A DNA stretch of 63,804 nt, filler included, from Octopus bimaculoides (lineage: Eukaryota): NCBI RefSeq assembly GCF_001194135.2. It is 5 parts of 5 records of this genome, joined end to end, with 100 filler letters (N's around TTAATTAATTAA, not from the genome) between each part and the next. Parts side by side here need not be neighbours in the genome. Positions count along the whole stretch, not along the records: positions 1 to 25,491 come from NC_068989.1; positions 25,592 to 52,322 come from NC_068993.1; positions 52,423 to 55,954 come from NC_068987.1; positions 56,055 to 61,046 come from NC_068994.1; positions 61,147 to 63,804 come from NC_068986.1. One strand, given 5' to 3'. The notes below the pieces were generated by a model. It made no database searches. It was not told where the DNA came from and worked only from the letters and a program-made list of their open reading frames with translations. The position numbers and the translations under genes were made by a program. Positions within the stretch are counted from its first letter, which is position 1. Each line of letters starts with the position of its first letter. Shown here in pieces: positions 3,016 through 62,923 of this stretch.

Positions 3016-3060
3016 GGTGTACATGCATATTTCAAGAGTCATTGCTCTTTCATCAGCACC
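3016..3060 (-). ncRNA. Type I hammerhead ribozyme, intact core
   Basis: Minus strand GGTG-CTGATGA-AAGAG caatga CTCTT-GAAA-tatgcatg-TA-CACC: 4-bp stem I, perfect 5-bp stem II, palindromic (ATGCAT) stem III, GUA cleavage triplet. Confidence 0.75.
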
Positions 3061-3462
3061 GCATCCAACCCAATAGTTATTCACGAACGCATTGCTTAAA
3101 TACCCACTAAGTTTAGCAGTGTAACACTATTGGATAGACCAACTTATGTATTTAATACATTCCTGGCATCTGATACGTAAATATTAATTCTTAGCAAGGT
3201 CACAGTATTTCGTCTTGCAACCATAATAAACTGCCAAATATATTAAAGGTTTACAAATCAATACTGTCTTGTTTTTGTGTTAGCAATGCGATATTCTTAT
3301 TTTTAAGTTTATAAGTTGAAAGCCAACACTGAAAGTTACGACGTAAATAATGTGGCTCTGAGCTCTATAGAAAATCTGTAGTGATAAACTTTAAAATGAG
3401 AACAACATATTGCTAACACAAAAAAAGCAAGATAAAATAGGTACCGAAATTTGAAACCAATT

Positions 3463-3690
3463 ATGGCAGCGATCTGGCTGAAATGTTAGCACACCGGGGG
3501 AAAATGCTTAGCGACATTTTGTTCGTCTTTACGTTCTGAGTTTAAATTCTGCTGAGGTCGACTTTACCTTTCATCCTGTTGGGGTCAATAAAATAAAGTA
3601 CTAGTTGAACTCCTGGGGGTCGATATAATCGACGTGCCCACTTCCCCAAAATTGCTGGCTTTGTGTCAAAATTAAAAACCAGTATTTGTA
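3463..3690 (+). mobile_element. SINE family A copy
   Basis: A/B-box head, central CCTTTCATCC..GGGGTC block, GTCGATATAATCGAC hairpin, tail variant AAAATTGCTGGCTTTGTG. Confidence 0.85.
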
Positions 3691-4740
3691 TCANNNNNNN
3701 NNNNNNNNNNNNNNNNNNNNNNNNNNNNNNNNNNNNNNNNNNNNNNNNNNNNNNNNNNNNNNNNNNNNNNNNNNNNNNNNNNNNNNNNNNNNNNNNNNNN
3801 NNNNNNNNNNNNNNNNNNNNNNNNNNNNNNNNNNNNNNNNNNNNNNNNNNNNNNNNNNNNNNNNNNNNNNNNNNNNNNNNNNNNNNNNNNNNNNNNNNNN
3901 NNNNNNNNNNNNNNNNNNNNNNNNNNNNNNNNNNNNNNNNNNNNNNNNNNNNNNNNNNNNNNNNNNNNNNNNNNNNNNNNNNNNNNNNNNNNNNNNNNNN
4001 NNNNNNNNNNNNNNNNNNNNNNNNNNNNNNNNNNNNNNNNNNNNNNNNNNNNNNNNNNNNNNNNNNNNNNNNNNNNNNNNNNNNNNNNNNNNNNNNNNNN
4101 NNNNNNNNNNNNNNNNNNNNNNNNNNNNNNNNNNNNNNNNNNNNNNNNNNNNNNNNNNNNNNNNNNNNNNNNNNNNNNNNNNNNNNNNNNNNNNNNNNNN
4201 NNNNNNNNNNNNNNNNNNNNNNNNNNNNNNNNNNNNNNNNNNNNNNNNNNNNNNNNNNNNNNNNNNNNNNNNNNNNNNNNNNNNNNNNNNNNNNNNNNNN
4301 NNNNNNNNNNNNNNNNNNNNNNNNNNNNNNNNNNNNNNNNNNNNNNNNNNNNNNNNNNNNNNNNNNNNNNNNNNNNNNNNNNNNNNNNNNNNNNNNNNNN
4401 NNNNNNNNNNNNNNNNNNNNNNNNNNNNNNNNNNNNNNNNNNNNNNNNNNNNNNNNNNNNNNNNNNNNGGAGGAGGAGGAGATGGTGTTGGTGGAGATGG
4501 TGTTGGTGGAGATGGTGTTGGTGATGGCGGTGGTGTCGCATCGAGTTGATCCAGATACATCAGACCCTGATTATAAAATGATGTATAGCGTTATCCAACA
4601 ATTTCCAGATGCTACACTGCTTGGGCTGATCAAAGAATTGGGGTGATCGAGGGAATTGACACCATTGCTAATACTATTGTTTTCGACCATCGAATTATTA
4701 AACAGTAAAGTAAATCCTAACGAGGTCTGATCTCACAGCA

Positions 4741-5025
4741 TACATACTTGCTTGCATATGGCAGCCCATCAAAGGCGATGATAGTCTTCGATCCAAGACA
4801 TTTCATCCTCCACCGCCTCCGCCTCTGTCTCCAGCACGTTGTTTCTCACGGAAGCGGACGTGGCTGATAAGACCGATACGAGATAGGAAGATCTTGTGGC
4901 ATTGAGGGCAATGAAGGTGACCCTGAATAACATCTGCTGGGTTTTGATGACGACGTCTCCTCTCTTTATGTAGTCTCCTGCGTTCAGTTTCAAATTGCTC
5001 TATTCCAGCAGCATACATGGCTATC
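4741..5025 (-). mobile_element. RTE-clade LINE 3' end (ORF2 C-terminus and UTR)
   Basis: ORF 4803..5018 encodes CPQCHKIFLSRIGLISHVR, the C2H2-like C-terminal motif typical of RTE ORF2; short 3' UTR ends in TATG-like repeats. Confidence 0.75.
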
Positions 5026-5084
5026 TATGCATTCTGATTAGCAGCCAGGGAGTCAGCTCACCATAAAGGAATACTGACCCAAAG

Positions 5085-5275
5085 AGGAAACGTCTACGCA
5101 GTCACCCGACCTGCTAGAAAAAGCAACCAAATCTCCCGCAGATCATATTACAATGTTGTTTTAATGAAATATCCCATTGGACAATCTAGTCCTTAAGCAC
5201 AGGCTGGGCATAGCTAGGACGACCTTATGATAGGTCGGCTGAGGCAGAGCTGCCATGGGGCTAAACAACAATACT
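5085..5275 (+). mobile_element. SINE family C fragment
   Basis: GTCACCCGACCTGCTAGAAAAAGCAACCAAATCTCCC...GGGGCTAAACAACAA; related pieces at about 27600, 42300, 49580, 59300 and 59720. Confidence 0.55.
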
Positions 5276-5314
5276 TATTTATTGCGATATTTTATTTTAG
5301 CGTTCCACTGTTCT

Positions 5315-5382
5315 CTGATTATCAAACCCACAACCTTATGATCTTGAGCCTAATACTCCCAACTACTTGGCCACACGCCTTC
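5315..5382 (-). mobile_element. tRNA-like head of SINE family D, abutting the 5S copy
   Basis: GAAGGCGTGTGGCCAAGTAGTTGGGAGTATTAGGCTCAAGATCATAAGGTTGTGGGTTTGAT matches the family-D heads starting at 12187 and 23749. Confidence 0.65.
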
Positions 5383-60540: not shown

Positions 60541-61669
60541 CAATTTATTGCATAGCATTAGCACCCTTACATTAAATAGTTTTATATATAAAACTATTAT
60601 ATAACATTAACAACTTTATAGTAATCATGTATAAAACACAATTACATAACATTAACAGATTTATACCACACACATAGTGAAAGGGTTTTCATCTGTAACT
60701 CACTGTGCATCCTATGAAGCATTCCACTCATGACCAGCCAGTGGATTTTATTTATTGTGCTAGGACTAGCTTATCTAATGGTAAATAAGGTAATCATAAG
60801 ACGGTGGAGTGTGACTGCCGTCATCATCAATATCCTCCACCACCTCCTCCTTTTTCTCCTCCCCCTCCTCCTCCTCCTCCTCTTCCACATAATCATCATC
60901 ATCATCAACATTATTATCACCATCATTATCACTATTATCATCATCTTCGCCACGTCATGATCATCATCATCGTCATTATCGTCATCACCACAATCATCAC
61001 TATATTTACTTTCTTGTTCCACTTCTTCCTCCAAAGCTTGTATATANNNNNNNNNNNNNNNNNNNNNNNNNNNNNNNNNNNNNNNNNNNNTTAATTAATT
61101 AANNNNNNNNNNNNNNNNNNNNNNNNNNNNNNNNNNNNNNNNNNNNTGTGTGTGTGTGTGTGTGTATACTTGGAGGTGCAACTGCTCATAGTAACTGACC
61201 AGTTGCTGGACGGAAATGAATCAAAGAATTGTAAGAATAGAAAATAATAGGAACGTTAGAATCAATTGTATATGTATATATGCGAGTATGTTTGAGTATA
61301 TATATATGTGTATGTGTCTGGCCTGTTAGCTTATATATAAATTTATATAAAAGGAGGAGAATTTTTGAGTCATAAGTAAGAAAAGAATTATATATGGATA
61401 TATATGATTAGCAGGTTTGTTTTGAGACAAACTTTTGTACAAATAAGTTAAGAGACGAGTCAACGATAAATAACAAAATGGACAGATATATAGGTAACTA
61501 GTTAGCCAGATAAATATTTAGATAGATAGGTAGATAAATAGATCGATAAAGAGATAGATAGACCGATATATACATAAATAGATTGCGTAACAGAGACAAA
61601 TATGTAGATGGATGGACAAGCGCATACATAGATACATACATGTGCGCATACATAGTGAGAAATTTACTG

Positions 61670-62020
61670 ATATTCCACCCGGATTACAAATCAAACTACT
61701 TCAGTACCGATCTTGAGAGATTAGGGTTCTCAAAATTAGAAACAGGATAACTAGTTAAAAGGCAGATACAAACCACCATTGGAAATGTCAAAATGTGCAA
61801 AGGTTCACGAAAGTTTAGTATATAAGTACATATGTCACTACAAAATGTATGAGTATACATGTAAGAAAAACAGACAGATCTGTACATGCACTGACTCCAT
61901 ATATATATATATATAGACACATACACAACTTGTCTGCTGATGTTGAGATTCTGATGAAGGAGCCTTGTATCTAGGCTAGAAACCGGCTCTTTCTCCAATA
62001 GCAAGAACTCTACAGATAAA
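61670..62020 (+). mobile_element. R4/Dong-like extreme 3' end and UTR
   Basis: DLERLGFSK..IQTTIGNVKMCKRF C-terminus; UTR block GAAGGAGCCTTG.ATCTAGG.TAGAAACCGGCTC shared with 26955-26990. Confidence 0.7.
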
Positions 62021-62087
62021 AATAAATAATAGTGACAGTCCAGCTTCTTTTTATTCCATTAGGATCTTTATACAATACATTTCCATA

Positions 62088-62262
62088 GGCGCAGAAGTGG
62101 CTGTGCGGTAAGTAGCTTGCTTCCCAACCGCATGGTTTCGGGTTCAGTCCCACTGCGTGGCACCTTGAGCAAGTGTGTTCTACTATAGCCTCGGGCCGAC
62201 CAAAGCCTTGGGCCGACCAAAGCCTTGTGAGTGGATTTGGTAGAGAGAAACTGAAAGAAGCC
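62088..62262 (+). mobile_element. SINE family B 5' half with an internal short tandem duplication
   Basis: GGGCCGACCAAAGCCTT occurs twice in tandem. Confidence 0.9.
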
Positions 62263-62342
62263 NNNNNNNNNNACACACACACACACACACACACACACAC
62301 ACACACACACACACACACACACACACACACATATATATATAA

Positions 62343-62577
62343 TATATGTAATTGTTAAAGAGGACAATAAACATTAAAGCAAAGCAAACATCTCAAGTTG
62401 TATACAATATTATTATTGGAACTCTTTTTTCCGTATTTGTCTCTGATGACGGAAAATCCCATACTCGGGATACTCCCAGAAACAGCTGTAAGACTTTGAA
62501 TTTTTTCCAATAATAATATTGTACACGACTTGTTTGCTTTGCCTTAATGTTTGCTGTCCTGTTTAACAATTATATAT
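62343..62577. mobile_element. Fold-back element: ~75-bp inverted arms enclosing a hammerhead ribozyme, TA-flanked
   Basis: Arms 62343-62421 and 62505-62577 (TAATTGTTAAA.AGGACA..AAACATTAA.GCAAAGCAAACA...TACAATATTATTATTGGAA, roughly 80% identical by eye); 83-nt loop. Confidence 0.75.
62439..62494 (+). ncRNA. Type I hammerhead ribozyme, intact core
   Basis: GTCT-CTGATGA-[c GG aaa ATCCC atactc GGGAT act CC ca]-GAAA-C AGCT G-TA-AGAC: 4-bp stem I, palindromic AGCT stem III, GUA triplet (62488-62490). Confidence 0.8.
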
Positions 62578-62877
62578 CAACATCATCGGAAATCTGCAAT
62601 GGCTCCATAACTACCGTCTCGGCTATAACCTTGGAGCCCTAGTAATCCGTTACAGCATTTACCTAGCGTACCTAATCGTTTAGAGATCACCTGTGAACTA
62701 AACTCCCATACTTTGTATATATATATATATATATATATATATATATATATATATATATATATATATATATATATTTGTATTTCGGGATCGTTATTGTTTT
62801 CTTTGTCAAATAAACACACGCACCATATATATTTGTTCTTCACTCGTTTATCATTGTTCTTATTTTAACCCATGTCC

Positions 62878-62923
62878 ATTGTTCGGAAATCTTTCGTCAC
62901 ACATCTGTGACCTCTTCAGCAAT
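62878..62923 (-). ncRNA. Type I hammerhead ribozyme, intact core, weak stem I
   Basis: ATTG-CTGAAGA-g-GTCACA gatg TGTGAC-GAAA-gatt-TC-CGAACAAT: perfect 6-bp stem II. Confidence 0.6.

What the first reader, a model, noticed from the sequence alone, without database searches (positions are those of the whole stretch)
3016..62923. About seven unrelated hammerhead motifs in 64 kb, three inside inverted-repeat structures
Seen: HHR cores at 3016 (-), ~14300 (palindrome), 24388 (+), 52519 (-), 52788 (-), 62439 (+) and 62878 (-). Their stem II sequences all differ, and most have palindromic stem III regions (ATGCAT, ACGT, ATCGAT, AGCT), so several families are involved. Three different PLE coding remnants are also present (23812, 25592, 53240). 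Inference: this genome may host a diverse PLE/ribozyme ecosystem with thousands of self-cleaving sites, which would cut host pre-mRNA when intronic and in sense.
Basis: partly seen in the sequence, partly recalled or inferred. Interest (0 to 1): 0.75.

Follow-up and report, generated by a model that had tools for sequence, protein, structure and literature searches.

The report
Hammerhead tails of Penelope-type retroelements
All seven motifs are copies of common repeats, likely the ribozyme-bearing tail ends left by Penelope-type jumping genes and their passengers; only three keep a standard catalytic core, lone copies likely do not cut host RNA, and one very large family carries an unusual letter in the core.

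Summary
All seven sites are hammerhead motifs, far above shuffled background, each from a different genome-wide repeat family. Three keep a canonical core (3056, 62443, 62919), three are broken (14300, 52590, 52830), and one carries a family-wide A6U core (3,450 exact U6 matches against 68 A6). Three families run back into Penelope-like (PLE) endonuclease coding sequence. One, perhaps two, are circularly permuted non-coding units like retrozymes. Two have no coding link found but Hydra-type ribozymes. The window is a pack from at least three chromosomes and only about twice the genome average. A 0.83-Mb sample gives about 66 motif copies per Mb (about 130,000 genome-wide), about 10 per Mb intact-looking. 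This is a known phenomenon, and the scan noted it before on other DNA of this genome. Cutting of host pre-mRNA is unsupported: published single minimal PLE hammerheads needed a partner or PLE protein, and RNA reads show no ends at two cleavage sites. Two leads remain: the A6U lineage, and a family whose copies stop or fold back at the ribozyme's 5' edge (19 of 30).

The parts
3016..3060 (-). Type I hammerhead, canonical core intact (CUGAUGA 3056-3050, GAAA 3033-3030, cleavage triplet ends at 3020), palindromic helix III
2894..3311 (-). One full turn plus about 10 nt of a ~400-nt circularly permuted non-coding unit (retrozyme-like)
   Evidence: 416-nt match to a tandem unit from L220; 20 loci start at many unit positions
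3353..3436 (+). Short inverted piece of the same unit
14176..14368 (.). Fold-back of a short element with a Hydra-type hammerhead that has the U3-A8 core; one arm carries a ~55-nt tail. Dead copy: G12A on the minus arm (core 14303-14297), 5' core box absent on the plus arm
23813..23923 (+). Remnant of the C-terminal GIY-YIG endonuclease of the element that ends at 24472
24389..24424 (+). Minimal hammerhead with family-wide A6U core (CUGUGGA 24393-24399), in the 3' end of a PLE that stops at a (TA)n tract at 24473
25591..25938 (-). RT remnant of an RT+GIY-YIG PLE ORF; no hammerhead linked in this stretch
52471..52766 (-). Short repeat with Hydra-type hammerhead (long helix II; family core C(C/U)GAUGA). 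In this copy the 5' helix I strand and core box near 52590 are partly deleted; GAAA at 52534-52531
52768..52969 (-). Repeat with canonical-core hammerhead family, terminally redundant ~240-300-nt unit in other copies; this copy has G12A at 52807 (core 52830-52824)
53291..53803 (+). RT remnant of Hydra type (by eye against the published alignment); its family carries a different, U3-A8 hammerhead, so it is not the parent of 52830 or 52519
62344..62421 (-). Inverted 5'-truncated arm, mirror of 62500-62577
62422..62715 (+). PLE 3' end with canonical-core hammerhead (62439-62494), family-wide C.A mismatch above helix II; a long copy (L372) carries endonuclease and inverted RT coding sequence
62775..63655 (-). 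PLE 3' end with canonical-core hammerhead (62919-62878), helix I weakened; long copies carry endonuclease-like coding sequence ~950 nt upstream; tail-to-tail with the previous element across one (TA)n tract

Best explanation
The seven motifs are members of seven genome-wide repeat families that are likely the 3' ends of Penelope-like retroelements and of short non-coding elements that borrow their enzymes. Inferred mechanism: the PLE protein nicks AT-rich or (TA)n DNA and starts reverse transcription about 50-230 nt downstream of the hammerhead. Most copies stop early, so most insertions are stumps that still hold the ribozyme, often with a mirror-image second arm. This explains the density, the variety and the inverted repeats. 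The ribozymes have a short palindromic helix III and would fold actively only as a dimer or with the PLE protein, so a lone, decayed copy in a host transcript is predicted to stay uncut. Shown: family membership, core letters, coding links for three families, permuted units for the 3056 family, densities. Inferred: priming, truncation, dimer or protein dependence, lack of cutting.
For: Family copies for every site. Same-strand endonuclease sequence upstream: 24388 family in L038, L169, L302 matches the C-terminus of full RT+GIY-YIG proteins at E 1e-26 to 1e-41 and the window's own 23813-23923; 62443 family in L372, with the RT part inverted just upstream; 62919 family in L205 and L211 (by motif only). 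Inverted arm with a tail on one side only, as described for PLEs (PMC8557442; PMC11167929). Copies end at (TA)n or other microsatellites. 3056 family: 8 of 22 HHR-bearing matches in 20 loci exceed one 405-nt unit, starts scattered round the unit. Dimer folding of 62443 pairs the palindromic helix III between two molecules. Published: single min-HHR showed no cleavage (PMC4209133); the anole PLE HHR needed protein and its mutants inserted normally (PMC11167929). No pile-up of read ends at the cleavage site in three RNA runs, two families.
Against: No coding link was found for the 3056, 14300, 52519 and 52830 families in the loci read. Pfam gave only a weak GIY-YIG hit for L302 (E 0.008, under cut-off) and none for L169, L205, L211 or L372; Hydra assignment rests on comparison by eye. 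The RNA runs come from a coded organism that may be another species, look unstranded, and only about 6% of each was read. Decayed 3056 units show no clear rod-like fold (z -0.7 to -1.6). Twelve of 22 profile seeds came from the sample that was counted.
Confidence: 0.85

Rival explanations
1. Thousands of solitary intact copies self-cleave inside host pre-mRNA, so sense-strand intronic copies are harmful and purged, or are used for regulation.
For: About 10 intact-looking canonical motifs per Mb (8 in 833,506 bases against 0.25 per shuffle). The 3056 family has an extended helix I and a CAAUAA loop 2, closer to canonical retrozyme hammerheads, which cleave well (PMC7229834). Retrozymes are under-represented in Xenopus introns (bioRxiv 10.64898/2026.07.22.740005).
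Against: Short palindromic helix III in all seven; published lack of monomer activity; no read-end pile-ups; 44% of Xenopus retrozyme copies are still intronic, and the parts I read report no strand test.
Confidence: 0.08
2. The 3056 and 52830 families are partial-tandem ends of autonomous PLEs whose coding part was not sampled, not retrozymes copied from a circular or multimeric RNA.
For: PLE ends also form partial tandems and inverted arms; 3' ends cluster (unit position ~160 in several 3056 copies, 93-97 in 3 of 4 52830 copies); only 4 copies of the 52830 family were read.
Against: In the 3056 family the sequence downstream of the ribozyme runs on into the sequence upstream of it, ends also fall at other unit positions, and no copy of 20 loci extends into coding sequence.
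Confidence: 0.25
3. The motifs are chance matches in AT-rich, repeat-rich DNA.
For: Rfam finds none in the window; one descriptor hit (58439) and two variant-core hits (9397, 62589) look like chance.
Against: Shuffle and reversed controls; seven families with unrelated stems share core letters and helix layout.
Confidence: 0.01

Closest known systems
Minimal hammerheads in the pseudo-LTRs of metazoan Penelope-like elements (Cervera and de la Pena 2014, PMC4209133)
   Same: Type I layout, short palindromic helix III, extra nucleotide before helix II, many families per genome, mostly solitary truncated copies, pairs 100-700 bp apart on opposite strands, U3-A8 core variant.
   Different: Higher numbers here (about 2x10^4 intact-looking against 2,000-9,000 reported; methods differ). 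A family-wide A6U core is not in the parts I read.
Hydra-clade PLEs, incl. Hydra-1_Obim (Craig et al. 2021, PMC8557442, Files S1, S2)
   Same: RT motifs of L372 and window 53291 match the printed Hydra alignment by eye; helix III of ACAG/CUGU and ACUC/GAGU type and a mismatch above helix II as in File S2; (TA)n targets; inverted 5' copy with one-sided tail.
   Different: The listed octopus Hydra HHR differs from all seven here; six motif strings from these families were not found in the supplement text (line breaks could hide them). All HHRs in the File S2 table I read have the C3-G8 core, whereas two Hydra-type families here have U3-A8.
Metazoan non-LTR retrozymes (PMC7229834; bioRxiv 10.64898/2026.07.22.740005)
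   Same: Non-coding 240-400-nt head-to-tail units with one type I HHR each; proposed to be PLE passengers.
   Different: Mostly monomers and dimers here, about 80% alike; circular RNA not shown.
Natural hammerhead core variants (Perreault et al. 2011, PMC3088659)
   Same: U3-A8, U4C and a position-6 change (A6C, below 0.1 per min) occur in nature.
   Different: There they are rare single cases; here U6 is carried by 98% of exact matches in a family of thousands.

Membership tests
Type I hammerhead ribozyme | 13 conserved core nucleotides (CUGANGA, GAAA, UH) | tested here: met
   Met at 3056, 62443, 62919 and in the 52830 family majority.
Type I hammerhead ribozyme | 13 conserved core nucleotides, window copies 14300, 24388, 52519, 52830 | tested here: not met
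   G12A at 14284 and 52807, partial deletion near 52590, A6U at 24396. Filed as remnants or a variant, not as intact ribozymes.
Type I hammerhead ribozyme | Three helices, helix I open | tested here: met
   Descriptor and alignments; 62443 has a C.A mismatch above helix II.
Type I hammerhead ribozyme | Site-specific self-cleavage | not testable with these tools
   Only indirect: no read-end pile-up in two families.
EN+ Penelope-like element 3' end | RT/GIY-YIG ORF upstream of the HHR on the same strand (24388, 62443, 62919 families) | tested here: met
   strong for 24388, by motif for the other two.
EN+ Penelope-like element 3' end | Same, for 3056, 14300, 52519, 52830 families | tested here: inconclusive
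   None found in the loci read; copies are short.
EN+ Penelope-like element 3' end | Inverted 5'-truncated copy, one-sided tail, tandem copies, AT-rich or (TA)n target | tested here: met
Hydra clade of PLEs | RT and endonuclease group with Hydra elements in a tree | not tested
   Only comparison by eye of L372 and window 53291 with the printed alignment.
Non-LTR retrozyme | 150-450-nt head-to-tail non-coding units, one type I HHR each | tested here: met
   3056 family: units of 405, 401 and about 380 nt in L220, L234, L233. 52830 family: suggestive, 4 copies.
Non-LTR retrozyme | Highly self-paired unit | tested here: inconclusive
   z -0.7, -0.8, -1.6 for three decayed units.
Non-LTR retrozyme | Expressed as linear and circular RNA | not tested

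The most novel reading that the evidence does not exclude
In this genome the hammerhead's shape matters more than its chemistry. One PLE lineage spread to over ten thousand copies through several subfamilies with U at core position 6 while changing the free positions 7 and 17, either as a protein-assisted active variant or as proof in vivo that cleavage is dispensable. In another family the ribozyme's 5' edge acts as a stop and turn-around site for reverse transcriptase, producing the fold-back copies.
Probability: 0.3. Interest if true: 0.55.

Novelty: new member of a known kind. Interest (0 to 1): 0.3.

Why it matters
The role of the PLE hammerhead is open: in vitro, one was not needed for insertion. 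This genome offers sister subfamilies with canonical and A6U cores, two U3-A8 families and roughly 10^5 copies, enough to test whether cleavage matters for spread, whether intact sense copies are purged from introns, and where inversions turn. As a window-level oddity it is ordinary: any 60 kb of this genome holds about four such motifs.

Tried and rejected
Rfam on the window: no hammerhead; RF00163 on G000 scored only 74 candidates and kept 11, so it cannot count these families. A guessed canonical core for the 14300 family had 0 matches; the real core is U3-A8. Linking that RT to the 52830 or 52519 hammerheads: rejected, its family has another HHR in 7 of the 30 nearest loci. Tandem-unit test for the 52519 family failed because the pair chosen was not a unit. 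Claim that the A6U ribozyme region is more constrained than its flanks: not shown; a U4A sub-lineage makes up about 10% of DNA depth and 10-16% of RNA reads, and the pattern search fixed the other letters. 5' extents for the A6U family are lower bounds, broken by pyrimidine-rich indels. ARAGORN and Rfam did not recognise the tRNA-like head of family F1. PDB search of the RT remnant: nothing. Run search: no RNA holder listed. Lunse et al. 2017 (PMC5785218) is not held; its variants could include position 6. No Repbase or Dfam comparison was possible, so 'already catalogued' is untested. No gene annotation, so the intron strand test was not run.
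Full report
Setting. The window is five stretches of a 2.34-Gb, microsatellite-rich animal genome. An octopus-like source is inferred from the likeness of one RT to a published octopus element and from earlier scan notes. Stretch 1 maps to C9, stretch 3 to C7 and stretch 5 to C6. Seven in 64 kb is therefore not one local cluster: the counts per stretch are 3, 0, 2, 0, 2.

Observation. Every site is a copy of a repeat family, and the family alignment settles its ribozyme. 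3056 (-): canonical core, 5-bp helix II, palindromic helix III, intact. 14300: a palindrome whose parent has the core UUGAUAA (U3-A8), a 4-bp helix II and a GUC site; the window copy has G12A on one arm and no 5' box on the other. 24388 (+): minimal hammerhead with U at position 6. 52519 (-): the family's 5' box lies near 52590 and is partly deleted here. 52830 (-): canonical family, G12A here. 62443 (+): canonical core with a C.A mismatch above helix II in most copies, a feature also seen in the published HHR table. 62919 (-): canonical core, weakened helix I. So 3 of 7 keep the canonical core.

Chance and density. A strict descriptor gave 3 canonical hits in the window against 0.025 per shuffle (40 shuffles), and 8 in 100 evenly spaced 10-kb stretches of C1-C16 (833,506 called bases) against 1 in four shuffles. 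Variant cores were at background in that test. Profiles for 22 seeded families gave 56 hits at 22 bits and none in the reversed sample; with a 23rd family and 30 bits, 55 hits, 66 per Mb (resampled 42-93), and 8 in the window. Twelve seeds came from the sample itself and three are single sequences that find only themselves; 13 of the 55 belong to the window's families. Scaled to about 1.95 Gb of called bases (my assumption from the sample), that is about 1.3x10^5 motif copies and about 2x10^4 intact-looking ones. The window is about twice the mean, P(>=8)=0.083.

Link to PLEs. In the 24388 family, L038, L169 and L302 carry same-strand sequence that matches the C-terminus of full-length RT+GIY-YIG proteins (E 1e-26 to 1e-41), and window 23813-23923 is 78-81% identical to it. 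In the 62443 family, L372 has endonuclease-like coding sequence just upstream of the HHR and the RT inverted beyond it; by eye the RT is close to Hydra-1_Obim. In the 62919 family, L205 and L211 have endonuclease-like motifs about 950 nt upstream. Pfam itself is weak on these pieces: 1 of 6 endonuclease pieces hit GIY-YIG, below cut-off. The RT at 25591-25938 has 637 relatives among 650 candidates. The RT at 53291-53803 is Hydra type; 7 of its 30 nearest loci show a different U3-A8 hammerhead about 1 kb downstream (8 of all 70 loci gave no local RT match). For 3056, 14300, 52519 and 52830 no coding link was found.

Retrozyme-like units. Earlier scan notes on retrozymes in this genome led me to test permutation. 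The 3056 family is a unit of about 400 nt: tandem pairs sit 405, 401 and about 380 nt apart, starts scatter round the unit, and the window copy is one turn plus about 10 nt. The 52830 family shows terminal redundancy in 2 of 4 copies. Fold energies of decayed units are not clearly unusual.

Inverted repeats. An inverted 5'-truncated copy with a tail on one side is the described PLE insertion form. In the 14300 family I took 30 loci chosen only on the downstream arm. The direct arm's 5' edge lay within -12 to +6 nt of U3 in 19, between +16 and +38 in 8, and ran further in 3; 16 had an adjacent inverted arm, counted after discarding microsatellite matches. The turning point often sits at a short palindrome just 5' of the core. 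Arms of one copy are slightly more alike than arms of different copies (88.8% against 87.1% outside CpG, 0 of 2,000 permutations; 84.3% against 83.2%, 68 of 2,000, over all sites; 23 copies). That fits fold-backs made insertion by insertion, or conversion between arms. An RT stop at the ribozyme and a transcription start there both fit. Other families do not show this edge so sharply.

The A6U lineage. An exact 24-letter pattern matches 3,450 times with U6 and 68 times with A6, control 0; the sample holds 7 copies, so the family likely exceeds 10,000. A tree of 53 of 60 loci (7 dropped for N) plus 2 outgroups puts 17 A6 and 4 U6 copies in one supported clade; the other A6 copies scatter and look like back-mutations. 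Subfamilies differ at position 7 and at position 17, the free positions. Against function: a U4A sub-lineage is about 10% of DNA depth, and the pattern fixed the other letters. A full-text search for hammerhead with A6U gave 2 records, one listed, on twister ribozymes, not opened. A6C is published as slow. Lunse et al. 2017 could not be read.

RNA. About 6% of three RNA runs of a coded organism, perhaps another species, were laid on near-typical copies. The A6U family drew 1,751-2,500 reads per run and the 62919 family 535-804, equally from both strands, with no place where many molecules begin or end and no step in depth at the cleavage site. This is weak evidence: half the reads may be antisense.

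Mechanism. Inferred from PMC11167929: the PLE protein cuts AT-rich DNA and starts cDNA synthesis downstream of the hammerhead on uncut RNA. Early stops leave ribozyme-bearing stumps, often mirrored. A short palindromic helix III calls for a dimer (dimer folding of 62443 pairs it between molecules) or protein help. Lone copies in host transcripts are predicted to stay mostly uncut; tandem pairs and the 3056 family are the likely exceptions.

What I read. PMC4209133 parts 1-2 of 4; PMC11167929 parts 1-2 of 4; bioRxiv 10.64898/2026.07.22.740005 parts 1-2 of 5, supplements not seen; PMC7229834 passages and Results part 1 of 3; PMC8557442 passages, supplement searches and part 2 of 59; passages of PMC3088659, PMC6765202, PMC10085705, PMC6962438. 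Searches joining hammerhead, Penelope and octopus returned only PMC8557442 and PMC6962438. Supplements of PMC4209133 and PMC7229834, not read, may list cephalopod motifs.

Verdict. The motifs are real and the scale is large, but this is the described PLE and retrozyme hammerhead load, and the window is near typical for its genome. New member of a known kind; interest 0.3.

Noticed in passing
L071, L084, L096, L113, L116, L128, L134, L267 (family F1; not in the window): The commonest hammerhead family in the sample (18 of 55 motifs) joins a tRNA-like head (A and B boxes by eye) and an AAT tract to a canonical minimal HHR, often as back-to-back pairs; like schistosome Sm-alpha in design. ARAGORN and Rfam do not call the head. 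The scan noted this before (e1-9931138).
   Followed up: partly
L328, L331, L333, L334, L344, L346, L349, about 1.0 kb downstream of the RT match: The family of the window's 53291 RT carries its own hammerhead with a U3-A8 core, a second such family in this genome.
   Followed up: partly
L359, L369, L373: Family F2 hammerhead lies 1.1-1.3 kb downstream of Hydra-type RT matches on the same strand.
   Followed up: partly
L203:1540-1590: RNA reads show A>G at core A13 in about 39% against 0.5% of DNA depth, but G>A differences are as frequent, so a few highly transcribed decayed copies explain it as well as editing.
   Followed up: no
window 58381-58818 (+): LINE-like RT remnant (weak RVT_1) holding a chance hammerhead-like string at 58439.
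   Followed up: partly
window 7125-7430 (-), 16717-17109 (-), 22349-22798 (+): Mariner-type transposase remnants (HTH_48, Transposase_1).
   Followed up: no
window 15824-16396 (+): Integrase-like remnant (rve_3, E 0.076), probably of an LTR retrotransposon.
   Followed up: no
window 26028-26780 (+): Broken frames that recall the C-terminus of a restriction-like-endonuclease LINE (recalled motifs; no Pfam hit sought on this strand).
   Followed up: no
window 55550-55950 and at least eight other places: A very abundant SINE-like repeat with many matches in the sampled loci.
   Followed up: no
L001-L009: The best Rfam hammerhead hits in G000 are mostly one further family, with short and long helix II forms.
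   Followed up: no
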